Positions 1,474-23,294 of a stretch of 23,515 nt of DNA are shown here, in pieces. A program made the translations under genes and the position numbers. Each line of letters opens with the position of its first letter. Position 1 is the stretch's first letter. This DNA comes from an uncultured archaeon (GTDB lineage Archaea > Asgardarchaeota > Lokiarchaeia > Sigyniarchaeales > SOKP01). Under the pieces are notes generated by a model, which had not been told where the DNA came from, ran no database searches, and saw nothing but the letters and a program-made list of their open reading frames with translations. The stretch is taken from the NCBI GenBank assembly GCA_964447495.1, contig CAYUTF010000051.1, forward strand, positions 1-23,515, written 5' to 3'.

Positions 1474-1890
1474 TCATAAGCTTGATAAATATTGAATTAA
1501 AAATGACATTGCAAATATTATTGGGACTAAAATAATTATAGTTACAAAGAAAGACCGTTTTAATCCAATTTTATGAATTACATTGATCAAATTTAAATCC
1601 AAAAATGCAGACCCAACAATCGCAAGTATAATAAATCCCGCAGGAGGACCTTCATGGAATGCACCTGTAAATCCTAATATTAACATAGGGGAACTAATAA
1701 AGAAAATCGCTCCAAACTGAATGAGAAAGCTGACACCTACCCATTTTATTTTGGTTCTATATTCTGCTTTTGCCACTAATAAACCAATTTTTAATAAAAA
1801 TATATCTACAACAATTAAAATAACACTAAAGATGATCTCCTCGTAATCACCTATTGACGTCATTCCCGTTTGAAGAATACTTAGCAACAT
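1474..1890 (-). CDS. Hypothetical membrane protein, about 4 TM helices
   Basis: 138 aa ORF with four long hydrophobic stretches; convergent with pyrF; TGA stop. Confidence 0.8.
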   Translation of the reverse strand: MLLSILQTGMTSIGDYEEIIFSVILIVVDIFLLKIGLLVAKAEYRTKIKWVGVSFLIQFGAIFFISSPMLILGFTGAFHEGPPAGFIILAIVGSAFLDLNLINVIHKIGLKRSFFVTIIILVPIIFAMSFLIQYLSSL

Positions 1891-2102
1891 AATATTTCCT
1901 CTAATTAGTATTATTCAATTTAACAATCAATCTTAAATTGCTTTTTTAATAATCTAAATTATACAAATTATATAAAAGATTTTTGATTTAAAGTTAATTT
2001 TTTGGGATAAGATATTTTAAATTAGGATAAATAATTTTGAATTATATTATTTGTAAAAACAATTGGAGGATATTTAAAAAAAAATAAAAGGTTTGATATG
2101 CA

Positions 2103-4073
2103 ATGGTAGAAGCGAAAGTTGCTAAAGATAACGATGAAATTCGAATCTTCGTTGCTGTCTGTCAGTGAGGTATAAACATTGCTGAAATAATTGATACAAA
2201 AGCACTAGTAGAATTCACTAAATCTTTGCCAAATGTTGTTGATGCTTTGGATTATATTAGTCTGTGTACTGAATCCGGAGCAGAGTTTATTAAGCAAAAT
2301 ATGATTGAAAGTAACGCTAATAGACTTGTTGTAGCATCTTGTACTCCAATCACCCATGAACCGGTTTTTAAAAGTGTTTTAGAAGCAATGGGAATAGATC
2401 CCTCATACTTGGAATTTGTTAATATTCGAGAGCATGCAAGTTTTGTTCATAGGCAAGATAAGCCAGGAGCACAAAGAACTGCCGAAGATGCTATTAAATC
2501 TGGTGTTGCTCGAGCAGCTGTATTAGAGCAAATCTTGGTAAAAGAAGTAGATATTACTAAGAAAGCATTAATAATTGGTGGAGGTGTTGCTGGACTATCA
2601 GCAGGTATTGACTTAGCTGATGAAGGTTTTGAAGTTTTTCTTGTTGAAAAAAGCCCCACTATTGGCGGTAAAATGGCAATGCTCGATCGTACTTTCCCTA
2701 CTGATGATTGTAGTATCTGAATTCTCGGTCCTGTTATGCTTCAGTCTGCAAGAAGTCCCGGATTAAACATTTATACATACAGTGAAGTAGAGGATGTTTC
2801 TGGATTTGTTGGGAATTTTAAAGTTAAAATTCGCAAAAAAGCAAGATATGTAAATAATGATTGTAATGGATGTGGCTCATGTTTCGAAGTGTGTCCTGCT
2901 TACGGGTATGATGAATTTAATGAGGGTATGAATCCTCGTAAAGCTATATATGTTTCATTTGCCCAAGCAGTTCCGTCAATGGCTCAGATAGATATGAGTA
3001 AATGTATCAAATGCGGAATGTGTCAGCAGGTATGTGAAGTGAATGCTATAGACTTCAATCAAAAAGATGAAATCATAGAATTAGAAGTTGGCTCAATCAT
3101 AGTTGCTACTGGTTGGGACGAATATGAACCTGAAACTGGATATTTGGGATATAATAAATATCCTAATGTAATAACTCAAATGAAGCTTGAACGCATCTTG
3201 GCACCGAACGGACCCACTTTAGGTCACCTTGTACGCCCATCTGATGGTAAAAGGCCAGAAAAAATTCTTTTTATACAATGTGTGGGGTCAAGAGATTTAA
3301 ATAAGCAGACTTATTGCAGTGCTGGAGTATGTTGTATGATTTCAATAAAAAATACAAAACTCATAAAACAACATTATCCCGATGCGGATATAACTGTAGC
3401 GTATATGGATATAAGAGCTGCCGGAAAAGACTATGAAGAATATTATACAGCTTCACGAAAAGAAGGCATCAAATACGTAAGAACAAATATTTCTAAAATA
3501 TACGAGGATCCTAAGACTCATAATTTAAAAGTAATTCTACAAAATACCTTGAGTAATACGGGCTTAAAAGAGTTTGAGTATGATCTAGTAGTATTATCGT
3601 GTGCTATGGTACCAGCCATAGGTGTTGAAAAAGTTAGTAAATTACTAAAACTTGAAACAAGCCAAGATGGATTTTTTAAAGAATTCCATTCTCGATTGAA
3701 TCCTATAGACACAAAGATACCTGGAATTGTGCTTGCCGGCGTCGCTCAAGGGCCTAAATCAATATCTGAGTCAATATCTCAGGGAAGAGCTGCAGCATCT
3801 TCTCTTGCGAGAATTTTGGGTAAAGATAAATACAGAATACTTTTAATTCGAGCCACAGTAGATAAAGAAAAATGCGCTAAATGCGGTTTATGCGAGTTAA
3901 ATTGTCCGTATGATGCGATAATTTTAAATCCTGATGGTGCGGAAGTGAATGAAATATTATGTCGTGGTTGCGGTTCGTGCTTAGCCAATTGTCCATCAGA
4001 AGCGATAACACTTAGATATTATCGCGAACCCCAATATGAGAAGCAAATAGATGCTATATTAGAGGAAATTTAA
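2103..4073 (+). CDS. hdrA: Heterodisulfide reductase subunit A (HdrA)-like flavo-iron-sulfur selenoprotein, 656 aa, Sec at codon 22 (TGA 2166-2168) and codon 206 (TGA 2718-2720)
   Basis: ATG 2103 and ORFs 2226-2720 and 2736-4073 are one frame, separated only by TGA. N-terminus RIFVAVCQ[TGA]GINIA matches the HdrA CxCGxNIA motif; TFPTDDCSI[TGA]ILGP matches TFPTxDCxxCIL. Also ASCTP, FAD motif GGGVAG, four CxxCxxCxxxC ferredoxin motifs, QCVGSRD...YCSAGVCC; ends in TAA. Confidence 0.95.
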
Positions 4074-4079
4074 GGAGGT
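4074..4079 (+). promoter_or_regulatory. Shine-Dalgarno site for mvhD
   Basis: GGAGGT directly after the hdrA TAA and 7 nt before ATG 4087. Confidence 0.8.
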
Positions 4080-4086
4080 AAATTGA

Positions 4087-4551
4087 ATGTCGACTAATAG
4101 TGAAATGAAAATTATTACTTTCATGTGTTGGAAATGAGGATATGGAGCAGGAGATATGGCAGGAACTATACGAGCTCAATATCCTGCTACAATTAGACCA
4201 ATAAGAATAAACTGTACCGGACGTGTTACTCCTAGCTTAATGATGCGAGCAATTGGCAAAGGTGCTGATGGAGTAATCGTTGCTGGATGATATGAAGGAG
4301 AATGTGATTACGAAACCGGTAATTTAATTGCGGCAAAAAACGTACAATACACGAAAGAAATATTAAAAACTGCAGGTATATCTCCGGAGCGAATACAAAT
4401 GTTCCATTGTAGTGCAGCGGAAGGCCAAAGATTCCAAGAAGAAGTAACTCGTATCTCTCAAGTTATTGAACGTTTAGGCAGCAACCCAATGAAAGAATCA
4501 ATATCTTTAGAAAAGGAAAAAAGTAAACCTAAAGACGAAAAACAGAAGTAA
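4087..4551 (+). CDS. mvhD: Methyl-viologen-reducing hydrogenase delta subunit (MvhD/VhuD/FlpD family, [2Fe-2S]) selenoprotein, 154 aa, Sec at codon 17 (TGA 4135-4137) and codon 68 (TGA 4288-4290); absent from the ORF track
   Basis: Manual translation: MSTNSEMKIITFMCWK[U]GYGAGDMAGTIRAQYPATIRPIRINCTGRVTPSLMMRAIGKGADGVIVAG[U]YEGECDYETGNLIAAKNVQYTKEILKTAGISPERIQMFHCSAAEGQRFQEEVTRISQVIERLGSNPMKES...KQK*. Matches MvhD motifs CxxCxYxxAD, CxGRV, GADGVxVxGCxxGxCxY, ERxxxxxxSAxE; SD present; TAA at 4549-4551. Confidence 0.95.
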
Positions 4552-4554
4552 TAA

Positions 4555-4623
4555 TCCGAAAGAATGAATCTTATGAAAAAATAATAGTTGTAAGATGACA
4601 AACCATAAAGCAATGGTTTCGGA
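4555..4623 (+). promoter_or_regulatory. Eukaryote-like SECIS element in the 3' UTR of hdrA-mvhD
   Basis: AUGA 4564-4567; 9-bp helix AUCUUAUGA (4568-4576) with UUGUAAGAU (4588-4596); loop AAAAAUAAUAG (4577-4587); GA 4597-4598; lower helix UCCGAAA (4555-4561) with UUUCGGA (4617-4623). Confidence 0.8.
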
Positions 4624-4630
4624 ATAAAAA

Positions 4631-4651
4631 TTTTATCTATTTTTTAATTTT
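4631..4651 (+). terminator. Probable archaeal oligo-T terminator of the hdrA-mvhD transcript
   Basis: T-rich tract TTTTATCTATTTTTTAATTTT just downstream of the SECIS-like structure. Confidence 0.4.
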
Positions 4652-4764
4652 GAATCCCTATTCATAATATATCAAAAAGATTGTAAATCTTTTTAAATTG
4701 GGGTGTCTTGTATAATCGTGTTAGAAATCATCTAAATAGAAAAAACATATAAAGTGAAAAAATA

Positions 4765-5412
4765 ATGGCTGAAGTTAAAACAGAAAGTAAAATTACGGCG
4801 CCAAAATTACTCGTATTCATTGGTATGCTCTTTACACTTGCATTAGGTATTACATATTTCTATGGAGCTGGAGATCCCCTAAACATTCTTTGGGGAATAA
4901 TCTGTTTAGTAATTGCGTTCTTAATTTTTGTATCATTAGAGCTGATTAGTTTTAGACCTGTGAAAATTCTATATCAATGGTGGATAATTCTTATCTTTGG
5001 TATAGTTTTAGTGCTATTAGTATACTTTTTCGGTGGTGGATATTTTCCTGCAATTCTACTATTATTAGCTGCTTTAATTGAATTAATAATGGCAAAGAAA
5101 CCCTATAAAGCCTCAAAAATGGTACTACTAGTGGGTATCGGTTTTTCTATATATGAGTGTTTTATGCTATTTCTCTCTGGAAATACACTCGCAATTATAA
5201 ATGGAGTTTTCGGTCTAATTTTATTAATAATTTTAGTTCTGATACTCTTTGACCTCGTAGATTTTAAAGTATTGAATTATTCATGGTGGTTAGTGCTAAT
5301 AGTCGGGTTTGTTATCTTTACTTGGGTATCACCTCTTGCAGGAGGCATACTTACCGGATATGGAGGAACACTTATTTTAATAGCATTTGTACTAATGGTA
5401 TTGGCATTATAA
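4765..5412 (+). CDS. Hypothetical polytopic membrane protein with an internal duplication (about 2x4 TM)
   Basis: 215 aa, almost wholly hydrophobic; the halves align (KLLVFIG...ILWGII...YQWWIILIFG...GGGY vs KMVLLVG...IINGVF...YSWWLVLIVG...GYGG). Confidence 0.8.
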   Translation: MAEVKTESKITAPKLLVFIGMLFTLALGITYFYGAGDPLNILWGIICLVIAFLIFVSLELISFRPVKILYQWWIILIFGIVLVLLVYFFGGGYFPAILLLLAALIELIMAKKPYKASKMVLLVGIGFSIYECFMLFLSGNTLAIINGVFGLILLIILVLILFDLVDFKVLNYSWWLVLIVGFVIFTWVSPLAGGILTGYGGTLILIAFVLMVLAL

Positions 5413-6849: not shown

Positions 6850-7989
6850 TTATATTAAAATTGGATTCTTTGGGACATAAGTTATTTGTTCACATTTTTC
6901 TTTTCCAATAATTACGTCATCTTCTAATCGAACACCCCATTCTCCTAGCCAATATAATCCTGGTTCATTAGTATAAACCATATTTTCTTTAAGAGTAAAG
7001 TTATCTGGAATAGATTGACTTATTCTCATTCCAATATCATGGGGTTCAAAACCAAGAGAATGACCTAAACCGTGAAAAAAAAGCTTTAAATGATCAAAAC
7101 CATATTCGGCTAAAGATTCTCTACATTTAATCGCTGGTATGTTATTCTTGGTACCATCAGTATAAAATTGATTGGCAGCTTTTTTTGCTTCAAGAAGTGC
7201 ATTATACGCCTTCATGAATCTGTCTGGTGGGTTTTTACCTATCCAAAAGGTCCAAGTTATATCCGAACACATCTCATCAATTTGTAACCCTGTATCAATC
7301 AATAATACACCGGGTTCTATTTTTTTAGTAGAAGTATTATGATGGGGATCAGCTGAATGAGCTCCTGTCGCTACAATGGCTTCGAATGATGGCTTTCCAA
7401 GTTTCATATATTCATATTCTATTTTTGCTCTCACTTCTCTCTCAGTCATCCCTACTCTGACCCAATCAGATACCGTTTCTAAAATCTCAAGTGTACATTT
7501 ACATGTATTTTTCAAATCTTTTTGTTCCCCTTTAGATTTGACGCTTCTAAGTTCAGATATAATAGGTGCTGAAGAAATGAAATCAGTTTGGGGTGATAAC
7601 TTTTTTACAGAAAAATAATCTCCTGCACGTAAATAATCCGCATATGCCGTTCCTTCAAAACTTAGAATATTCTCGCCATAATTTAATGCTATTCGCGGTT
7701 TTCTTAAGATATCTTTAAGTTTTGTAATTAAGTCATCAGATGATTTATATGCAATTACTTTCGCATCAACAGCTTTATCTTTAAGAGACTTTTGAATCAT
7801 AGGCGCTTCCATTTCAACAGCTAAGATAAGGTGATTGCCATCTTGTGCAACGTAAACGTAATTTCGGGCATGGGAACTTACTCCTAACATAAACCGCGAG
7901 TTAATATCACTATCTTCATTGCATATTATTAACCATCCATCAGCATCAATTTTTTCAAGAATTTGTTGCGCTCTCTCGAATTTATTCAT
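6850..7989 (-). CDS. Xaa-Pro peptidase family (M24B) metallopeptidase
   Basis: LRSVKS, ADPHH, LLIDTG...SDITWT, HGLGHSLG..PHD, TNEPGLY and GVRLEDD metal-binding motifs. Confidence 0.93.
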   Translation of the reverse strand: MNKFERAQQILEKIDADGWLIICNEDSDINSRFMLGVSSHARNYVYVAQDGNHLILAVEMEAPMIQKSLKDKAVDAKVIAYKSSDDLITKLKDILRKPRIALNYGENILSFEGTAYADYLRAGDYFSVKKLSPQTDFISSAPIISELRSVKSKGEQKDLKNTCKCTLEILETVSDWVRVGMTEREVRAKIEYEYMKLGKPSFEAIVATGAHSADPHHNTSTKKIEPGVLLIDTGLQIDEMCSDITWTFWIGKNPPDRFMKAYNALLEAKKAANQFYTDGTKNNIPAIKCRESLAEYGFDHLKLFFHGLGHSLGFEPHDIGMRISQSIPDNFTLKENMVYTNEPGLYWLGEWGVRLEDDVIIGKEKCEQITYVPKNPILI

Positions 7990-8191: not shown

Positions 8192-9730
8192 ATGAAACTA
8201 AGAGTCAAAACAATTAATTTTGAAACAGGAAACACTAAGGATGTCGTAATAAATAAAAAGGATGCCCAAGAATTGGGCCAAAAGGCAGGAGAGCGTGTTT
8301 ATATAAAAAACATTAAAGCTACCTCTCTTGAGAATAAATATTGGGTAGCTATAATTCAGATTGATTATTCAAATTCAATTGTAAAACCCGGCGAAATTGG
8401 AATTTTTATTGATATTCTTAGAGAGAAAAAAGAGCTTATTGATGGAGCAGTTATTTCAGTAAAACCAGCAGATCCACCTGATTCGTTTAGATTTATAAAA
8501 AAGAAAATTAATGGAAAGAAATTATCAAGCGAGGAGATAAATAGCATAATTGCAGATGCGGTATCGGGATCTCTATCTAAAATTGATTTAGCTGCTTTTA
8601 TTACCAGTGTATCAATAAATGGAATGGATAATGAAGAAATGACGGCACTCACTTTATCAGAAGTAAGAAGCGGAGATGTATTCTATTTCGGAATGGATGT
8701 ATATGATAAACACAGTACGGGAGGCGTCCCAGGCAATAAAGTATCCCTAATTATCGTTCCAATTGTGGCTGCTGCTGGTTTAACGATTCCAAAATCATCT
8801 ACTAGAGCAATAACCTCACCATCAGGAACAGCAGATTCTATGGAGACCTTAGCCCCAGTGGCTTTTAAGTCAGATCAACTAAAAGAGATCGTATCGAAAG
8901 AGAATGCATGCATAATTTGGGGAGGTGCTCTTAATACCTCGCCTGCTGATAATATCTTAATTGAAATTGAGAGACCATTACATATGGATCCTATTGGATT
9001 AATGATCCCTTCTATTCTAACTAAGAAGCTTTCCTTAGGTGTGAAGAAACTCGTATTGGATATCCCTGTTGGTCAAGGAACAAAATTTTCTACTCCGGAT
9101 GATGGAAAACAGTTTGCCTATATATTTAAAGAAATAGCTAGAAATGTCGGTATAGAGGCTGAGTGCGCTTTAACGCTCGCACATCAACCAATTGGTCATG
9201 CTATAGGACCAGCCTTAGAAGCAAAGGAAGCATTGAAATTATTAATGGACTATGACGCAGGACCTAACTCTTTAATTGAAAAATCTACAGAATTAGCGGG
9301 GATTCTTCTTGAAATGGGTGGTAAAGCACAGAAGGGGAAAGGACAAACTTTAGCGAAAGAAATCTTAAAATCAGGAAAAGCTTATGAGAAAATGAAGAAA
9401 ATAATTCAAGCTCAAGGGGGTAATCCCGAAATAAAACCTGATGATATTAAACTTGGACCCCATATTAAAGAGTTCTATACTACCAAAGAAGGGCATATTA
9501 CTGAAGTGAATAATGCTTTAATTAACCAAATTGCAAAAGCAGCGGGTTGTCCTCATTCTAAAAGCGCTGGGGTAGAACTCTTTAAAAAACAGGGAGCAAG
9601 AATAAAACAAGGAGATTTAATATTTAGAATTTATTCTGATAGCCAAAATCGATTGAAAAAAGCAGAGAAAATCTATAACTCTACAGGGGGCCCAATAATC
9701 TTAGGTGGAATGATGATTGAGAGAATATGA
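8192..9730 (+). CDS. deoA: AMP phosphorylase (archaeal thymidine phosphorylase family)
   Basis: Extra N-terminal domain, DKHSTGGVPGNK, PKSSTRAITSPSGTAD, QPIGHAIGPALEA; 512 aa is typical of archaeal AMPpase; TGA stop after ...MMIERI. Confidence 0.93.
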   Translation: MKLRVKTINFETGNTKDVVINKKDAQELGQKAGERVYIKNIKATSLENKYWVAIIQIDYSNSIVKPGEIGIFIDILREKKELIDGAVISVKPADPPDSFRFIKKKINGKKLSSEEINSIIADAVSGSLSKIDLAAFITSVSINGMDNEEMTALTLSEVRSGDVFYFGMDVYDKHSTGGVPGNKVSLIIVPIVAAAGLTIPKSSTRAITSPSGTADSMETLAPVAFKSDQLKEIVSKENACIIWGGALNTSPADNILIEIERPLHMDPIGLMIPSILTKKLSLGVKKLVLDIPVGQGTKFSTPDDGKQFAYIFKEIARNVGIEAECALTLAHQPIGHAIGPALEAKEALKLLMDYDAGPNSLIEKSTELAGILLEMGGKAQKGKGQTLAKEILKSGKAYEKMKKIIQAQGGNPEIKPDDIKLGPHIKEFYTTKEGHITEVNNALINQIAKAAGCPHSKSAGVELFKKQGARIKQGDLIFRIYSDSQNRLKKAEKIYNSTGGPIILGGMMIERI

Positions 9731-9975: not shown

Positions 9976-11475
9976 ATGGAATTTTCTCCTAAAGAAATCT
10001 ACAATAATTATATTAGTAAAAAAATTGATAGATCAACTCTCATTTCTCAATTAATCTCTATAATCGAAAGCAGTGATAATATAAGCAAAAGAATTAAGAG
10101 TATCGATACTTTAGCTAGTTTAGAAGTAAAAGATAAAAGAGTTTTTAAATTAATCGAGAATCTTTCGATATCTGATTCAAATGAATTTGTTAGATTAAGT
10201 GCATTAAAATATATAAGTAATTATTTTTTGGAATATTCCCTAGAGCCAATGAAATGGGCGTTTTTTCATGAAGAAATTCTACAATGTTTATTAGTAATAG
10301 CTGATACTTTAGGAAGTATCAATGACCCTGCTTCACGGGAATTTCAAATTCTAGTTTTAAAAAACATAGAAATTGAAGAATTTAAAAAACATATCAAATT
10401 AATGCTTGAGAGTGATAATCTTGATGACTTAAATAATAATGAAATATCAGGCATGATTAAAGATTATCTTATCATTAAGGAATTAAAAAGAAAATATGGA
10501 CATATAAATTTTATAGTAAACAACGGTAGAGTCTGTGAATTAGATCTCTCAGATATAAGCAGTCATGTATTTGGTTGGAATGCAATAAAGAAATTTCCTG
10601 ATTTTATAAGTGAATTGAAATTCTTGAAGGTTTTAGATCTGAAATTCAATAGATTAATAAACATTCCTGAAATATTAGGTGCATTAGTTAATTTAGAGTC
10701 CTTAGACTTAAGTTATAATAAAATTAAAAAACTACCTGATTCAATTGGCTTATTGAATTCACTTCATACTTTGAAATTAAGATACAATCAACTAAAATCT
10801 ATACCAAACTCAATTAGTAAGATTCAAAATCTAAAAAAATTCGATTTAAGATCTAATCAGTTAAATTCACTCCCAAATTCCTTAAATGAAATATTTAGTC
10901 TTGAAGAATTAGATTTGCATGGTAATAATTTAAAAAGTTTCAATATTAATTTACCTTCATTGACAACTTTGCATTACCTAGAATTAGGATTAAATCATTT
11001 AGATAAAATACCCGATTGGGTTAAAAATATTAAAAATTTAGTGAAATTAGGATTAGGAGGGAATAAATTAAAAATCCTTCCTGATTGGATTGGGTTATTG
11101 CAATCCCTCGAGGAATTACATATATATGATAATGAGCTCGTAACACTCCCAGAGACTATCGGCAAATTAAAGAATTTGCATGAGTTAAGTTTGTGGAATA
11201 ACAATCTCTCCTCTCTTCCACAATCTTTCTCTTCATTATCAAAATTAAAAGTATTAAATTTAAGTTGGAATAATTTTGATGAACTTCCCACTTGGATTGG
11301 CTCACTTAAATCTCTTGAAACATTGAGCTTATGGGGAAATAAATTAGAGAATCTTCCGAAATCTTTATCTCAATTGAGTTCCTTAAGGATATTGGATTTA
11401 AACTTTAATAAAATAAGTATTATCCCAGATTTTTTAAGACAACTAGAAAAAGAAGGATTAATTATTTATAAGTAA
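9976..11475 (+). CDS. Leucine-rich repeat protein with an N-terminal HEAT-like helical domain (~12 LRRs of 23 aa)
   Basis: Repeats LxxLxLxxNxLxxLPxxIxxL; N-terminal LIENLSISDSNEFVR...MKWAFFHE. Confidence 0.92.
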   Translation: MEFSPKEIYNNYISKKIDRSTLISQLISIIESSDNISKRIKSIDTLASLEVKDKRVFKLIENLSISDSNEFVRLSALKYISNYFLEYSLEPMKWAFFHEEILQCLLVIADTLGSINDPASREFQILVLKNIEIEEFKKHIKLMLESDNLDDLNNNEISGMIKDYLIIKELKRKYGHINFIVNNGRVCELDLSDISSHVFGWNAIKKFPDFISELKFLKVLDLKFNRLINIPEILGALVNLESLDLSYNKIKKLPDSIGLLNSLHTLKLRYNQLKSIPNSISKIQNLKKFDLRSNQLNSLPNSLNEIFSLEELDLHGNNLKSFNINLPSLTTLHYLELGLNHLDKIPDWVKNIKNLVKLGLGGNKLKILPDWIGLLQSLEELHIYDNELVTLPETIGKLKNLHELSLWNNNLSSLPQSFSSLSKLKVLNLSWNNFDELPTWIGSLKSLETLSLWGNKLENLPKSLSQLSSLRILDLNFNKISIIPDFLRQLEKEGLIIYK

Positions 11476-11523
11476 CCTAAAATCGCCCTATAGTAAAGCT
11501 TCATTAACAATATATAAAAAAAC

Positions 11524-12903
11524 ATGGAAATCAATCCAAGAAATTTATATAAAGATTACACCAAAAAGATCATTGATAAAGATTCACTTATCAAACAGCT
11601 GATTGCTTTAATCGAAAATAGTAGGAATATACATATAAGAATTCAAAGTATTCGAATTATTGGCCAATTAGATTTAAGTTCTAATGATTATTTAATAAAA
11701 CCGAGTAAACTTTATCATATATTAGAGAATCTCTTGATCTCTGATTCAAATGATCAAATAAGAAATGAGGCAGCAATCCTCCTTAACAAATATTATAAAA
11801 AAATCTCATTATCCCCAATGAAATGGGCTCTACTTCATGATGAGTCTCCTGAATGTTTAAAAACCATCCATGCATCTCTAATTGAAATTATAGGTGAATT
11901 AGAAAGAAGTAATGATGAAGAAACAGTTTCTATTCTAAAAAATGAATTATTTTCAATCGACGATAAGGATTTTAAAATTAATATTCACCAATATATCACA
12001 TTTGGAAATAAAAAATTTTTAACAAAGAGTAAAATCACCGAAATTTTAATAAATTTTTTCACGATAGTATATCTAAGAAAGATATTTTGGCGTCTAAAAT
12101 ATCGTGTGATAAATTCTAGGGTTGTCGAATTAGATTTTAGCTTTAAAGTTCTAACTAAATTACCTGAAGCTCTAAAATTTCTTAAATCACTCAAAAGATT
12201 GACTTTGAAATATAATCAAATCTTAGAGATTCCTGATTGGATTGGTGAACTCACATCTTTAGAATATTTAAACTTAAATATTAACAATGTTCCAAAATTA
12301 CCAAATTCATTTTCCAATTTGCATCATCTAAATGAATTATTATTATGGAAAAACGAGCTAGAAACTCTTCCGGAAGGTATAGGTAATTTAACGCAATTAA
12401 GAAAGTTGAATTTACGCCTCAATCAAATAAAAAAATTACCAAATACGTTAACTAACTTAAGCAATCTTGTAGAATTGGATTTACATGATAATAGATTGCA
12501 AATTCTCCCAGAATCAATAACTCTCTTAAAATCTTTAGAAAAATTAAACTTAAGTTGGAACATATTGCACGAACTTCCCGATTCTATACAATATTTATCG
12601 TCATTAAAGATTTTAGATATAGAAAGAAACGAATTGCGGTCAATTCCCTCCTCATTTGGTAATCTTAGCTCACTAGAAGTGCTAAATTTAAGTGAAAATC
12701 AATTAGTAGAATTACCCGAGACAATAGGAAGATTAAATTCTCTAAGAATTTTAAATTTATCTCGAAATGAACTAAAATACCTACCACATACATTAAGTTC
12801 TCTTCAATTACTGGAAGAGCTATATTTAGTAGATAATCCTTTAGAAGAGATTCCGTCTACCTTACGAAAATTAGAGGATAATGGTCTTAAAATTTTCATT
12901 TAG
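11524..12903 (+). CDS. Leucine-rich repeat protein, tandem paralog of the upstream gene (~10 LRRs)
   Basis: Same architecture: MEINP, ILENLLISDSNDQIR, MKWALLHDE, 23-aa LRRs, C-terminal cap LRKLEDNGLKIFI. Confidence 0.92.
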   Translation: MEINPRNLYKDYTKKIIDKDSLIKQLIALIENSRNIHIRIQSIRIIGQLDLSSNDYLIKPSKLYHILENLLISDSNDQIRNEAAILLNKYYKKISLSPMKWALLHDESPECLKTIHASLIEIIGELERSNDEETVSILKNELFSIDDKDFKINIHQYITFGNKKFLTKSKITEILINFFTIVYLRKIFWRLKYRVINSRVVELDFSFKVLTKLPEALKFLKSLKRLTLKYNQILEIPDWIGELTSLEYLNLNINNVPKLPNSFSNLHHLNELLLWKNELETLPEGIGNLTQLRKLNLRLNQIKKLPNTLTNLSNLVELDLHDNRLQILPESITLLKSLEKLNLSWNILHELPDSIQYLSSLKILDIERNELRSIPSSFGNLSSLEVLNLSENQLVELPETIGRLNSLRILNLSRNELKYLPHTLSSLQLLEELYLVDNPLEEIPSTLRKLEDNGLKIFI

Positions 12904-20964: not shown

Positions 20965-21930
20965 ATGGATTTAAACCCAATAAATCTTTATGAAAAGTTT
21001 TGCAATACGGAAATTGATAAAACATCATTAATAAAATCTCTTTCAGTATTAATTGAAGATTCTAATGATGATACCATTAGAATTCAGGCAATTAATATAT
21101 TAAAAAAATTGGGCATTAAAACTACTTATATTTTTAAAATAATGGAAAGCTTGTTGCTTTCTGATACAAATGAAAAAATAAGGAATAATGCTGCTACTTA
21201 TATAGGGGCTCTTTTTATTGAAAAATCGTATAATGTAATAAAATGGGCAATTCAACATGAAACCTCCTATGAGTGCGTAATCACATTGATAAATACTCTT
21301 AGGAAAATACAAAATAATGATTCCAAAGAACTCCTAATTTCTGAAATTTCAAAAATTAAGAAATTAAATAAATCTATAGCCTATAAGCAACATATCTTCA
21401 AAAAATATAAAAAAGGATTAAAAAAAGTATTTAAAATGAAAAATATAGAAGAATTTTCCATAAACGAATTGGCAGAGATCTTCATTAATTATAAAACAGT
21501 CATAAATTTAGCGAATATGTTTCCTAATTTTTATTTTGAGTTAGATACTGAAAATGGACTCGTTTCCGAGTTAGATTTAGCAGATTATCTTCAATATGAA
21601 GTTAAAGGAACTCCTTGGGGTTGGAAAAATAACATAAAAACCCTTACCGAAATTAGAGGACTTGGAAATTTGAAATATATAAAAAAAATCGACTTATCAA
21701 ATAATTTAATTGAATATATAGATGGCCTTTTAGAACTTAAGAATTTAAAGACTATAATTTTAGCAAACAATAAAATTTATGATCTTGAAAATCTAAAATA
21801 TCTCAAATCACTTTCGAATCTCCGTTATATTGATTTAAGTGGTAATGAAATTTCAAAAAAGCTCTCAGAAATAGACTTTAAACCGAACATTAAAGTTATT
21901 TTAGAAACATTTCATGAGCACTTTGAATGA
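20965..21930 (+). CDS. LRR protein of the same helical-domain plus LRR family, with a short SDS22-like array (~3-4 LRRs)
   Basis: MDLNP, IMESLLLSDTNEKIR, IKWAIQHE; LRRs IKKIDLSNNLIEYIDGL, LKTIILANNKIYDLENL, LRYIDLSGNEI. Confidence 0.88.
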   Translation: MDLNPINLYEKFCNTEIDKTSLIKSLSVLIEDSNDDTIRIQAINILKKLGIKTTYIFKIMESLLLSDTNEKIRNNAATYIGALFIEKSYNVIKWAIQHETSYECVITLINTLRKIQNNDSKELLISEISKIKKLNKSIAYKQHIFKKYKKGLKKVFKMKNIEEFSINELAEIFINYKTVINLANMFPNFYFELDTENGLVSELDLADYLQYEVKGTPWGWKNNIKTLTEIRGLGNLKYIKKIDLSNNLIEYIDGLLELKNLKTIILANNKIYDLENLKYLKSLSNLRYIDLSGNEISKKLSEIDFKPNIKVILETFHEHFE

Positions 21931-21974: not shown

Positions 21975-23294
21975 TTATTTTTCAATTAAAGCTGTTTTAC
22001 CTGATCCCCACACACCAAGTGCTCTGCCTAATTCTTTGTGCTCCTTAGCGGCATCTTTTACTGGGATACCTTTCATTACTGCGTCAATAGCCTGCCTAAA
22101 AGCTTTAGCTCCATCAATAGGTCCATCTGGATGGCTATGAATTCCACCACCGCTCCCAATTAAAATATCCTTACCTGCTTCACTCATACATTTCTCAACC
22201 ATTCCTGGTGTGATCCCTCCTGAAGGCATAGGAAGAGTTGGTTTAATATGTTGAAGTCTATATCGTAATGCTTTGAGATTTTGTTCATAACGTTCATCTA
22301 AAATCTCTGCTTTTCCGTAAGGAGCAGGAATCACCACAGTATCAGCCCCACAAATTCGTGGAAGTTTAGCCAACGTTAACATGCTCGTCATGCCTGTCCA
22401 TTCTCCCCCAAAATATGCTCCAGCAAAATCCATATGCCCTAATATTGGTACTTTAATCGATGGGTCCTCAGCTAATTGTCTTAAAGCTTCAAATCCAGCG
22501 GTAAGAAAGTTAATCATTAAAGCATTTGCCCCTAATTCAATCATTTTATCAGCATATTCAAACATATCTGGAAACTTGGTAGTAATATTAATTGTATATA
22601 ATGTCTTCTCTCCCTTTTCTGAATCAGCTCTATCAATACCTTCCATAACTGCTACAATTCTATCTTCCAATGTGTTAAAGGAAGGATTCGAAATTAACTC
22701 ATCATCTTTAACGACATCACAACCACCAACAGCAGCTTTATAAACAAGATCCGCAGCAACTTCGCATGTGTGTCCCGTGCATGGCTTTACCATATTATTC
22801 AATAACGGTCTTTCTGGAACCTTTAATAGCTCTCGAAGTCCATCTATTCCAAATTTAGGACCTTTAAAATCTTGAAGGTATTCTTTTGGGAAGGCTAAGT
22901 CAACCAATTTAAGTCCATGGGTAATAGAAATATTTCCAATCACAGTTGTGAATAACATGGGTATTCCCATTCCTTTAATATTTACGATGGGAAATGCAAT
23001 CTGAACAAAATAATAACGATCTTTTATATCTTTTGGTATTACGTATTCATAGTGAGGGAGTTCATATACACCAATTACTCTAGCGACGTGATGCTTTCTA
23101 ACTTCAGCAGTTTCAGCAGGAACTCTTACCCACGTACCTGTTGATTGTTCTATAGCCGCAAATCGAGACAAATAATTGACATTCATTCCTTTTGGGCGTT
23201 TTATGATATAGCTTGCTATAATGTATTTTTCTAAATCGATACCATCCAAACCAATAGCTTCAGGAACATCCAAATATTGTTCTGTACTATCCAT
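21975..23294 (-). CDS. RuBisCO-like protein (form IV RLP)
   Basis: AAIEQSTGTW, FKGPKFGIDG, DVVKDDE, PSGG and GGGIHSHPDG show the RuBisCO fold; KPCTG (K177 equivalent is C), HMDF (R295 equivalent is M) and loss of H327 argue against a true carboxylase. Confidence 0.9.
   Translation of the reverse strand: MDSTEQYLDVPEAIGLDGIDLEKYIIASYIIKRPKGMNVNYLSRFAAIEQSTGTWVRVPAETAEVRKHHVARVIGVYELPHYEYVIPKDIKDRYYFVQIAFPIVNIKGMGIPMLFTTVIGNISITHGLKLVDLAFPKEYLQDFKGPKFGIDGLRELLKVPERPLLNNMVKPCTGHTCEVAADLVYKAAVGGCDVVKDDELISNPSFNTLEDRIVAVMEGIDRADSEKGEKTLYTINITTKFPDMFEYADKMIELGANALMINFLTAGFEALRQLAEDPSIKVPILGHMDFAGAYFGGEWTGMTSMLTLAKLPRICGADTVVIPAPYGKAEILDERYEQNLKALRYRLQHIKPTLPMPSGGITPGMVEKCMSEAGKDILIGSGGGIHSHPDGPIDGAKAFRQAIDAVMKGIPVKDAAKEHKELGRALGVWGSGKTALIEK

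What the first reader, a model, noticed from the sequence alone, without database searches (positions are those of the whole stretch)
2103..4623. Hidden bicistronic selenoprotein operon: four UGA-Sec codons in hdrA-mvhD, apparently served by one distal 3' UTR SECIS region
Seen: four in-frame TGAs (2166, 2718, 4135, 4288), each aligned to a conserved Cys position of HdrA or MvhD, while both genes end in TAA. TGA is a real stop elsewhere in the window (9728-9730, 21928-21930, 1476-1474) and Trp is TGG, so this is site-specific recoding. The hdrA-mvhD gap is only 13 nt and holds just an SD, leaving no room for a separate hdrA 3' SECIS. Known: HdrA and VhuD are archaeal selenoproteins, and eukaryote-like SECIS elements were reported in Lokiarchaeota (Mariotti et al. 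2016, Mol Biol Evol), so the system type has precedent. Inference: one SECIS region acts up to ~2.4 kb upstream, across a stop codon and a re-initiation site, on a polycistronic mRNA. Standard annotation would give two hdrA fragments and no mvhD.
Basis: partly seen in the sequence, partly recalled or inferred. Interest (0 to 1): 0.9.

Follow-up and report, generated by a model that had tools for sequence, protein, structure and literature searches.

The report
Asgard hdrA-vhuD selenoprotein pair, shared SECIS
Two adjacent redox-enzyme genes of an Asgard archaeon each carry two selenocysteine codons and appear to rely on one eukaryote-like signal behind the second gene, an arrangement that is real here but was already described in print in 2016 and 2024.

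Summary
hdrA (2103-4073) and vhuD/mvhD (4087-4551) each carry two in-frame TGAs at positions that are Cys or a non-standard residue in solved HdrA/MvhD structures. Both genes end in TAA and lie 13 nt apart. The genome has tRNA-Sec, SepSecS, an EFSec-like factor, a PSTK-like gene and a Sec-containing SelD. One textbook 'lokiSECIS' lies 12 nt after vhuD: AUGA, 9-bp stem, 11-nt loop AAAAAUAAUAG, GA (4564-4598). Two models and a relaxed pattern scan found no second SECIS in or before hdrA. In 80 related Asgard loci, vhuD has both TGAs in 80/80. hdrA sits directly upstream in 79/80 and never ends in TGA (0/79). One strong SECIS hit lies just after vhuD in 79/80. Co-transcription and Sec insertion remain unproven here and in what I read of those papers. 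Two additions: the SECIS hairpin sits in a conserved larger fold (closing helix plus a second covarying hairpin, 4555-4623) that the main texts I searched do not mention. Elsewhere in the genome lies a conserved, apparently unreported 'GCUU' double-Sec protein beside HgcAB-like genes.

The parts
2103..4073 (+). hdrA, heterodisulfide-reductase subunit A-like flavo-iron-sulfur protein, 656 aa, TAA stop
   Evidence: Translation with TGA=U. PDB 5odc_A E 2.1e-200. NCBIfam HdrA2 768.6 bits, below its 1100-bit cut-off. Pfam Fer4 and FAD-binding families.
2166..2168 (+). UGA, Sec22 of HdrA, 2398 nt before the SECIS AUGA
   Evidence: Opposite Cys in 5odc_A and 9sfi_A. TGA at this position in 65 of 67 related loci that cover it.
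2718..2720 (+). UGA, Sec206 of HdrA (the canonical HdrA Sec site), 1846 nt before the SECIS
   Evidence: Opposite Cys in 5odc_A and 'X' in 9sfi_A. TGA in 67 of 67 related loci that cover position 22 onward. Confirmed in the independent DNA run X2.
4074..4086 (+). 13-nt intergenic spacer with Shine-Dalgarno-like GGAGGT
   Evidence: Sequence. The gap is 13 nt in 41 of 56 related loci where an ATG start could be assigned. Its first 7 nt, (A/G)GAGGTG, are 85-100% conserved.
4087..4551 (+). vhuD/mvhD, hydrogenase delta subunit-like [2Fe-2S] protein, 154 aa, TAA stop
   Evidence: Pfam FlpD 1.3e-42. NCBIfam VhuD 151.7 bits, below its 215-bit cut-off. PDB 9sfi_K 4.8e-35.
4135..4137 (+). UGA, Sec17 of VhuD, 429 nt before the SECIS
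   Evidence: Opposite 'X' in 9sfi_K. TGA in 80 of 80 related loci. Confirmed in DNA run X2.
4288..4290 (+). UGA, Sec68 of VhuD, 276 nt before the SECIS
   Evidence: Opposite 'X' in 9sfi_K. TGA in 80 of 80 related loci. Confirmed in DNA run X2.
4564..4598 (+). lokiSECIS core: AUGA 4564-4567, 9-bp stem 4568-4576/4588-4596, 11-nt loop 4577-4587 (AAAAAUAAUAG), GA 4597-4598
   Evidence: Pattern scan. Model R1, built without the window, scores 61.9 bits, E 3.6e-13; the next best hit scores 11.8 bits. All 9 stem pairs covary across 58 loci.
4555..4623 (+). Larger fold around the SECIS: closing helix I (UCCGAA 4555-4560 with UUCGGA 4618-4623) and a second hairpin hp2 (ACCAU 4602-4606, loop 4607-4612, AUGGU 4613-4617)
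   Evidence: MFE fold of 4552-4626 is -14.1 kcal/mol, z -3.14. Model R2, built without the window, scores 88.2 bits. Pair counts: helix I 96.1% paired; hp2 94.6% paired with 4 of 5 pairs changed on both sides.
4631..4651 (+). T-rich tract (TTTT, TTTTTT, TTTT), a possible archaeal transcription end
   Evidence: Sequence only. The function is inferred and not tested.

Best explanation
This is an instance of the published Asgard (Lokiarchaeia-type) HdrA-VhuD selenoprotein gene pair. The two genes are most likely transcribed as one mRNA. Ribosomes translating hdrA meet UGA at codons 22 and 206, and ribosomes translating vhuD meet UGA at codons 17 and 68. At each of these codons, Sec-tRNA(Sec) is delivered by the EFSec-like factor. 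That factor is recruited, directly or through an unknown adaptor, by the single eukaryote-like kink-turn SECIS in the 3' UTR (4564-4598, within the fold 4555-4623). A 3'-UTR SECIS acts on whatever ribosome is decoding UGA on the same mRNA, so the hdrA stop codon and the vhuD start between them are no barrier. hdrA must end in UAA or UAG to avoid read-through, and it does. Shown here: the codons, the homology, the Sec machinery genes, the unique SECIS, and conservation across relatives. Inferred: co-transcription, actual Sec insertion, and which protein binds the SECIS.
For: Codons and homology. Sec machinery in the same genome: tRNA-Sec 57.7 bits, called tRNA-SeC(tca) by ARAGORN; SepSecS 475.2 bits beside it; SelB/EFSec-like factor 245 bits against a 242.25-bit cut-off on the same contig; SelD 176.9 bits with one in-frame TGA ('HGUSCK'). 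One SECIS only: R1 gives one hit in the 23.5-kb window at 61.9 bits with filters off, and the next best scores 11.8 bits at 7054. R2 gives 88.2 bits at 4552-4625. A relaxed [A/G]UGA-stem-GA/AA scan of 1801-4090 found 1 hit against 2.33 +/- 1.5 in 200 shuffles, with none A-rich or perfectly paired. There are no local hairpins 3' of the hdrA UGAs (z +1.10 and +0.88). Rfam found nothing but chance hits in 1900-4800. Comparative evidence from 80 related loci: vhuD has TGA at both sites in 80/80; hdrA is adjacent in 79/80, and the remaining locus starts at a contig end. The hdrA stop is TAA in 31, TAG in 48 and TGA in 0, whereas the vhuD stop is TAA in 27, TAG in 33 and TGA in 20. One strong R1 hit (42-68.4 bits) lies just 3' of vhuD in 79/80 loci. 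Inside hdrA there are only 3 weak hits (15.7-17.4 bits, E 0.39-0.96), each covering the bare hairpin part of the model. A second hdrA-vhuD pair on contig C25 of the same genome has the same layout and its own SECIS. Published statement of the same model: PMC4989117 (passages) and PMC11227280 (passages). In Methanococcus maripaludis a 3'-UTR SECIS worked at 520-679 nt with similar efficiency (PMC9622424, passages).
Against: No RNA evidence links the two genes. In the three RNA-library runs laid, no contig bridges 4071-4089, and RNA-library contigs cannot prove transcription. The PSTK-like hit (144.8 bits) is below the family cut-off of 290.5. R1 is strongly tuned to this orthologue's SECIS: it scores the other hdrA-vhuD SECIS of the same genome at only 9.3 bits. 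A divergent second element could therefore escape the models, and only the pattern scans cover that case. TGA 2166 was not covered by the independent DNA run. The RNA-library contig X20 that covers it has one A>G difference at a place the tool did not list. The SECIS sequences used for covariation were picked by a pattern that demands pairing, so the percentage paired is partly circular. No SECIS-binding protein (SBP2 or L30-like) was looked for here.
Confidence: 0.85

Rival explanations
1. hdrA has its own unrecognised recoding signal, such as a divergent SECIS in its coding region or 5' UTR, or a codon-context signal. In that case the element after vhuD serves vhuD only.
For: R1 misses a true but divergent lokiSECIS of the same genome (9.3 bits), so the models are not exhaustive. 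Methanococcales hdrA is said to have had its own SECIS (PMC4989117 discussion).
Against: No hit by R1 or R2 in or before hdrA, in the window or in 80 loci with about 4 kb of upstream flank. The relaxed kink-turn hairpin scan gave no more hits than shuffles. There is no stable local structure after either hdrA UGA. Rfam found nothing. The hdrA stop is never TGA in 79 loci, while the vhuD stop is TGA in 20 of 80. That pattern is expected only if a SECIS downstream acts on hdrA's ribosomes.
Confidence: 0.08
2. The hdrA UGAs are not decoded as Sec. The gene would then be broken or truncated, or the UGAs would be read through by a near-cognate tRNA or a general reassignment of TGA.
For: Under table 11 the gene is in pieces. 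No protein-level data exist.
Against: The TGAs sit exactly at conserved Cys/Sec positions. They are conserved in 65-67 of 67 (hdrA) and 80 of 80 (vhuD) related loci, while flanking codons vary. TGA ends 3 of 15 other long ORFs in the window. A full set of Sec genes is present.
Confidence: 0.03
3. The element acts on two transcripts. An internal promoter late in hdrA gives a short vhuD-SECIS mRNA in addition to the long hdrA-vhuD-SECIS mRNA. This is a refinement of the main reading and not a true alternative.
For: Nothing excludes it. The conserved SD-like (A/G)GAGGTG in the 13-nt spacer shows that vhuD has its own ribosome entry.
Against: No data either way. Archaeal promoters were not modelled. 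hdrA would still need the long transcript.
Confidence: 0.3

Closest known systems
Lokiarchaeota HdrA-VhuD tandem pairs sharing one lokiSECIS (Mariotti et al. 2016, PMC4989117; extended to Asgard genomes by Huang et al. 2024, PMC11227280)
   Same: Same two genes, same order and strand, and a very short spacer. VhuD has two Sec. HdrA has the canonical Sec (about position 200) plus an extra one. HdrA ends in UAA/UAG. A single AUGA / 9-bp stem / 11-nt A-rich loop ending in G / GA element lies just after vhuD (passages; my data).
   Different: Nothing essential: it is another genome of the same group. I add counts over 80 loci and the larger fold around the hairpin. I could not see the papers' supplements, which may list this very MAG.
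Methanococcales/Methanopyrus hdrA and vhuD selenoprotein genes with archaeal-type SECIS
   Same: Orthologous genes and the same Sec positions. Solved chains 9sfi_A and 9sfi_K carry a non-standard residue exactly opposite U206, U17 and U68. The hdrA-vhuD synteny is the same (paper passage).
   Different: According to the 2016 paper, those organisms use a different SECIS type, and VhuD there was the record holder for one SECIS serving two Sec codons 50 codons apart. Here one element would serve four UGAs over 2.4 kb and two cistrons.
Eukaryotic type I SECIS (kink-turn, AUGA...AA...GA, 3' UTR)
   Same: AUGA before the upper stem, GA after it, unpaired adenines at the start of the apical loop, a 3'-UTR location, and action at a distance.
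   Different: The upper stem is shorter (9 bp). Rfam's SECIS models do not detect it at E <= 10. No SBP2 is reported in Loki (paper passage). A second hairpin is inserted on the 3' strand between the GA and the closing helix.
k-junction, a kink-turn elaborated into a three-way junction (Wang et al. 2014; recalled from memory, seen only as reference 69 in PMC11227280)
   Same: The topology is helix I, an unpaired 5' strand, tandem G-A pairs, and an upper helix, with a third helix inserted on the non-bulged strand right after the GA.
   Different: This is a resemblance of predicted secondary structure only. No 3D or probing data exist, and membership was not tested.

Membership tests
lokiSECIS / Asgard eSECIS-like type I | AUGA immediately 5' of the stem and GA immediately 3' of it | tested here: met
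   AUGA 4564-4567 and GA 4597-4598.
lokiSECIS / Asgard eSECIS-like type I | 9-bp stem and 11-nt apical loop | tested here: met
   9 of 9 pairs, two of them G-U, and an 11-nt loop. The definition comes from PMC4989117.
lokiSECIS / Asgard eSECIS-like type I | The first five loop nucleotides are adenine-rich; the last loop nucleotide is G, usually preceded by A | tested here: met
   The loop is AAAAAUAAUAG. G is invariant in 58 loci. The feature is taken from the paper.
lokiSECIS / Asgard eSECIS-like type I | Lies close behind the stop codon of a selenoprotein gene | tested here: met
   12 nt after the vhuD TAA. In 62 loci matched by the strict pattern, the distance ranges from -4 to 26 nt.
lokiSECIS / Asgard eSECIS-like type I | Directs Sec insertion at UGA | not testable with these tools
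HdrA (selenoprotein form) | Full-length homology to heterodisulfide reductase subunit A, with Sec at the canonical site near residue 200 | tested here: met
   5odc_A E 2.1e-200 over residues 11-653. U206 lies opposite Cys in 5odc_A and opposite X in 9sfi_A. NCBIfam scores are below the equivalog cut-offs (768.6 against 1100), so it is an HdrA-family protein and not a named equivalog.
VhuD/MvhD (FlpD, PF02662) | FlpD domain with two Sec/Cys positions | tested here: met
   PF02662 1.3e-42 over profile positions 1-123 of 123. U17 and U68 lie opposite the two X residues of 9sfi_K.
Archaeal/eukaryal Sec-decoding trait | tRNA-Sec, SepSecS, SelD and a Sec-specific elongation factor | tested here: met
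   all are over their cut-offs.
Archaeal/eukaryal Sec-decoding trait | PSTK | tested here: inconclusive
   The best hit is 144.8 bits, E 4.2e-42, below the curated cut-off of 290.5.
Shared-SECIS bicistronic operon | Only one SECIS for both genes | tested here: met
   within the sensitivity limits described.
Shared-SECIS bicistronic operon | Both genes on one mRNA | tested here: inconclusive
   No RNA-library contig spans the junction. The only support is the 13-nt spacer and conserved synteny.
k-junction | Three-way junction with a kink-turn fold in 3D | not testable with these tools
   Only secondary-structure prediction and covariation are available.

The most novel reading that the evidence does not exclude
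The functional SECIS of Lokiarchaeia-type archaea is not the bare 35-nt hairpin described in print. It is a roughly 70-nt three-way element: a closing helix, the kink-turn hairpin, and a second covarying hairpin inserted right after the GA, giving a k-junction-like topology. The second hairpin occurs behind unrelated selenoprotein genes with unrelated arm sequences. It may be what allows one element to work over 2.4 kb and two cistrons without a recognisable SBP2.
Probability: 0.35. Interest if true: 0.55.

Novelty: already known. Interest (0 to 1): 0.25.

Why it matters
A single 3'-UTR SECIS that serves four UGAs in two cistrons is the most extreme known case of Sec decoding at a distance. 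It bears on how the eukaryotic SECIS system arose. That point was made in 2016, so this window adds only another example and broader counts. What could still matter is untested. No experiment reported in the passages I read shows that the two genes share an mRNA, or that the element works across a stop codon. The extra conserved hairpin and closing helix give concrete mutational targets. Automatic annotation still breaks these genes, so the practical value lies in correcting gene calls in Asgard MAGs.

Tried and rejected
Rfam scan of 1900-4800 at E <= 10: three chance snoRNA/sRNA hits only and no SECIS family. Known models therefore do not see the lokiSECIS.

Folding 4549-4660 with long flanks gave z -0.72. 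The signal appears only for the exact element 4552-4626 (z -3.14).

A stable hairpin right after UGA 4135 (z -2.97) looked like a possible Sec-redefinition element. In 76 related sequences it shows no covariation: score 0.024 against 0.028 in shuffles, with 469 of 500 shuffles as high. The pairing comes from invariant codon positions, so I rejected it.

RNAalifold on a plain MAFFT alignment of the extended SECIS region recovered only the main stem, because the flanks were out of register. I replaced this with a model-guided alignment. That alignment is fitted to the structure, so its pair counts lean towards it.

An MFE-based test for the full three-way fold was weak. The vhuD-linked set gave 41/61 against 269/1220 with shuffled flanks. 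The UU-linked set gave 7/18 against 63/360. The closing helix is therefore not general. Only the second hairpin is: 48/57 against 12% in shuffles, and 17/17 against 7.6%.

RNA evidence: three RNA-library runs hold only short pieces, namely X20 at 2091-2354, X19 at 2875-3140, and relatives' pieces in X21. None spans the hdrA-vhuD junction or the SECIS. This says nothing for or against co-transcription.

Fold search of the GCUU protein model gave only weak beta-grasp-like matches (best E 6.1e-4, TM about 0.3), so I name no family. Pfam and NCBIfam found nothing for it.

Locus L090 has no R1 or R2 hit. By eye it carries a SECIS of the C25 type after a remnant of the usual 5' part. This was not tested further. 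Locus L076 is titled as a Kosmotogaceae bacterium MAG. I take it to be a mis-binned 4.2-kb contig but did not check.

Literature: searches for 'SECIS' + 'k-junction', 'selenoprotein' + 'archaea' + 'Sec-Sec' and 'HgcA' + 'selenocysteine' + 'archaea' found no description of the second hairpin or of a GCUU archaeal selenoprotein.
Full report
THE OBSERVATION. The window (23,515 bases, 30.3% G+C) is a whole contig (C51) of a 3.81-Mb, 223-contig genome with 31.3% G+C. Positions 2166, 2718, 4135 and 4288 are TGA, and 4071 and 4549 are TAA. Reading TGA as Sec gives an uninterrupted 656-aa protein from 2103 to 4073 (U22, U206) and a 154-aa protein from 4087 to 4551 (U17, U68). The two are separated by 13 nt, GGAGGTAAATTGA. 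Each gene has one TGG codon.

WHAT THE GENES ARE. The long protein matches solved HdrA chains end to end (5odc_A, E 2.1e-200). U22 and U206 lie opposite cysteines. In a second solved HdrA (9sfi_A), the residue opposite U206 is the non-standard letter X. The short protein is a full FlpD/MvhD domain (PF02662, 1.3e-42). Both of its U positions lie opposite the two X residues of chain 9sfi_K. NCBIfam's HdrA2 model, which describes a fused HdrA-MvhD protein, matches the first protein over model positions 1-643 and the second over 646-774. The two cistrons therefore correspond to the two halves of a protein that is fused elsewhere.

THE ORGANISM AND ITS SEC MACHINERY. The 80 best related loci come almost entirely from records titled Promethearchaeota, Promethearchaeia, or Hod-, Odin-, Thor- or Hermodarchaeota, that is, Asgard archaea. 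A few are titled 'uncultured archaeon', and one 4.2-kb contig is labelled Kosmotogaceae (L076). The genome holds:
- a tRNA-Sec (57.7 bits; ARAGORN calls it tRNA-SeC, anticodon tca);
- SepSecS directly beside it (475.2 bits);
- a SelB/EFSec-like factor 4 kb away on the same contig (245 bits, cut-off 242.25);
- a SelD with one in-frame TGA at its active site;
- a PSTK-like gene that scores below its cut-off (144.8 against 290.5 bits).

THE SECIS. Twelve nucleotides after the vhuD stop lies AUGA, a 9-bp stem, the 11-nt loop AAAAAUAAUAG, and GA (4564-4598). A genome-wide pattern scan found only four sites of this exact 9/11 form. One is this site. One lies behind a second hdrA-vhuD pair on C25. 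One lies behind a vhuU-like gene on C76, where the UGA of the AUGA is the stop codon. One lies behind an unknown gene on C1. These features are those listed for the 'lokiSECIS' by Mariotti et al. 2016 (passages).

I built a covariance model from 58 related loci, leaving the window out. With filters off it finds one hit in the whole window, 4558-4604, at 61.9 bits and E 3.6e-13. The next best hit scores 11.8 bits at 7054. In the training alignment all nine stem pairs show changes on both sides. Those sequences had been chosen by a pattern that demands pairing, so the paired percentage is partly circular.

IS THERE A SECOND SECIS FOR hdrA? I found none.
- The models give no hit in or before hdrA in the window.
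- In 79 of 80 related loci there is exactly one strong hit, just after vhuD. Inside hdrA there are only three weak hits (15.7-17.4 bits, E 0.39-0.96) that cover just the hairpin part of the model.
- A relaxed scan of 1801-4090 for any [A/G]UGA-stem-GA/AA hairpin gave 1 hit against 2.33 +/- 1.5 in shuffles.
- The 70 nt after each hdrA UGA fold no better than shuffles (z +1.10 and +0.88).

The limit of this evidence is that model R1 is tuned to this orthologue. It scores the other hdrA-vhuD SECIS of the same genome at only 9.3 bits.

COMPARATIVE SUPPORT. Across the 80 loci:
- vhuD has TGA at both sites in 80/80.
- hdrA lies directly upstream in 79/80; the exception starts at a contig end.
- Of 67 loci that cover HdrA from position 22, the TGAs lie at 22+206 in 42, at 22+55+206 in 23, and at 206 only in 2.
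- The spacer is 13 nt in 41 of the 56 loci where an ATG start could be assigned. It begins with a conserved (A/G)GAGGTG.
- hdrA ends in TAA (31) or TAG (48) and never in TGA. vhuD ends in TGA in 20 of 80. Fisher's test gives 4.9e-7, but the loci are kin and not independent.

This asymmetry is what one expects if the downstream SECIS acts on ribosomes in hdrA but not on a UGA too close to the element. The 2016 paper makes the same argument.

SEQUENCE RELIABILITY. Contigs of an independent DNA run reproduce 2545-3828 and 3949-4523 without a difference. They cover three of the TGAs, the hdrA stop, the spacer and the vhuD start. TGA 2166 lies in a gap of that run. RNA-library contigs do cover it, but one of them has an A>G difference at a place the tool did not list. 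Conservation of this TGA in 65 of 67 relatives argues that it is real.

WHAT IS KNOWN. Mariotti et al. 2016 (PMC4989117; passages read) report the following:
- Only a single lokiSECIS lies downstream of VhuD.
- One element may serve up to six UGAs spanning about 2 kb.

Huang et al. [quoted passage not shown] A 2026 review repeats the framework (PMC13188914; passages). In none of the passages I read is the sharing tested by experiment. In Methanococcus maripaludis a 3'-UTR SECIS worked equally well at 520-679 nt (PMC9622424; passages).

HOW IT MOST LIKELY WORKS. One mRNA runs from upstream of 2103 to the T-rich tract at 4631-4651. The SECIS in its 3' UTR recruits the EFSec-like factor carrying Sec-tRNA(Sec). 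Any ribosome pausing at UGA on that mRNA, in either cistron, can receive it. vhuD is translated from its own SD-like site 7 nt upstream of its ATG. The codons, the homology, the machinery genes, the unique SECIS and the conservation are shown here. Co-transcription, Sec insertion and the SECIS-binding partner are inferred.

WHAT I CAN ADD: A LARGER FOLD AROUND THE SECIS.
- A closing helix pairs UCCGAA (4555-4560) with UUCGGA (4618-4623).
- A second hairpin pairs ACCAU with AUGGU (4602-4617) and lies between the GA and the closing helix.
- The 75-nt element folds this way at -14.1 kcal/mol (z -3.14; 1 of 200 shuffles folds as well).

A second model with all three helices, built from 28 loci without the window, hits the window at 88.2 bits. 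It also hits 79 of 80 loci, and the SECIS behind the unrelated gene on C1 at 40.2 bits. On the model-guided alignment, which leans towards the structure, the closing helix is 96.1% paired but nearly invariant (CCGA/UCGG). The second hairpin is 94.6% paired, with 4 of 5 pairs changed on both sides.

The SECIS elements on C25 and C76 fold into the same three-way shape with unrelated helix sequences. A second hairpin of 4 bp or more, starting 1-5 nt after the GA, is found in 48 of 57 distinct vhuD-linked flanks (12% of shuffled flanks) and in 17 of 17 flanks of the C1 gene family (7.6% of shuffled flanks). The closing helix is less general.

The main texts of the two papers contain neither 'hairpin' in this sense nor 'three-way'. 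The 2024 paper mentions family-specific lower stems only for frhA and selD. I could not see their supplements. The topology recalls the k-junction. That comparison is from memory and is untested.

NOTICED IN PASSING: A CANDIDATE NEW DOUBLE-SEC PROTEIN FAMILY. The fourth lokiSECIS of the genome (C1) follows a 158-aa ORF with two adjacent in-frame TGAs, '...IQLQPDVGCUUEKVK...'.
- Conservation: relatives occur in 61 of 81 related genomes searched. Nearly every full-length match carries exactly two TGAs, down to 22-30% identity.
- In the 20 best loci, the CUU motif and the 34-aa tail after it are conserved, and 19 have a 9/11 lokiSECIS a few nucleotides after the stop.
- Family assignment: Pfam and NCBIfam find nothing. 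A confident AlphaFold model (pLDDT 87.2) has only weak beta-grasp-like neighbours in the PDB.
- Gene context: the gene follows an HgcB-like ferredoxin in 19 of 20 loci. In this genome that ferredoxin follows a CpaM-like methyltransferase fused to an HgcA-like corrinoid domain and an ACR3 arsenite exporter, with a divergent ArsR-type regulator.
- Literature: the family is not among the seven Asgard selenoprotein families named in the 2024 paper or the 2026 review. A 2022 preprint reports that bacterial HgcA proteins are mostly CU-motif selenoproteins (passages), which gives a parallel.

I suggest, as inference only, a metal(loid)-binding role for the C-U-U triad.

VERDICT. Interest for the finding as given is low. 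The larger SECIS fold and the GCUU protein are the parts worth a further look.

Noticed in passing
G000 contig C1:137780-138253 (-), locus L112/L132; SECIS at C1:137728-137762 (-): A 158-aa ORF has two adjacent in-frame TGAs ('DVGCUUEKVK') and a lokiSECIS 14 nt after its TAA stop. Homologues occur in 61 of 81 related genomes, and nearly all carry exactly 2 TGAs. 19 of the 20 best loci have a SECIS. Pfam and NCBIfam find no family. The AF2 model has pLDDT 87.2 with only weak beta-grasp matches. The gene sits after an HgcB-like ferredoxin (19/20 loci), a CpaM-like methyltransferase fused to an HgcA-like domain, and ACR3, with a divergent ArsR. It is not among the Asgard selenoprotein families named in the papers I read. 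It is a candidate new double-Sec family.
   Followed up: partly
G000 contig C25:14576-17068 (-), locus L028: A second hdrA-vhuD pair in the same genome (HdrA U27, U212; VhuD U16, U67). It has a 13-nt spacer, TAA stops, and its own lokiSECIS of quite different sequence 18 nt after vhuD. Model R1 scores that SECIS at only 9.3 bits.
   Followed up: partly
G000 contig C76:11478-11512 (+), locus L030: A vhuU-like small hydrogenase gene ('FDCULSCAAH') whose stop codon is the UGA inside the SECIS AUGA. The 2016 paper describes the same for Loki VhuU.1.
   Followed up: no
G000 contig C19:37873-44471: A Sec-machinery cluster: SepSecS, tRNA-Sec directly beside it, and an EFSec/SelB-like factor within 7 kb. 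SelD on C55 is itself a selenoprotein.
   Followed up: partly
locus L090, about 4460-4560: The only related locus without a model hit. By eye, a remnant of the usual 5' part (AAACCGAAUAGAAUGA) is followed by a SECIS resembling the C25 type. This suggests replacement of one SECIS type by another.
   Followed up: no
window 8192-9730 (+) and 21975-23294 (-): A nucleoside/AMP phosphorylase-like gene (Glycos_transf_3 + PYNP_C) and a RuBisCO large-subunit-like gene lie in the same window. Both are reminiscent of the archaeal AMP salvage pathway. That pathway assignment is recalled and not tested.
   Followed up: no
window 9976-12903 (+) and 20965-21930 (+): Three leucine-rich-repeat proteins, two of them in tandem, with strong LRR Pfam hits. 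This is a eukaryote-like repeat family in an Asgard genome.
   Followed up: no
window 2103-4551: NCBIfam's fused HdrA2 model (777 positions) is matched over positions 1-643 by hdrA and 646-774 by vhuD. The two cistrons are therefore the split form of a protein that is fused in some methanogens.
   Followed up: no
locus L076: A 4.2-kb contig carrying the Asgard-type hdrA-vhuD-SECIS is filed under a Kosmotogaceae bacterium MAG. It is probably a binning error.
   Followed up: no
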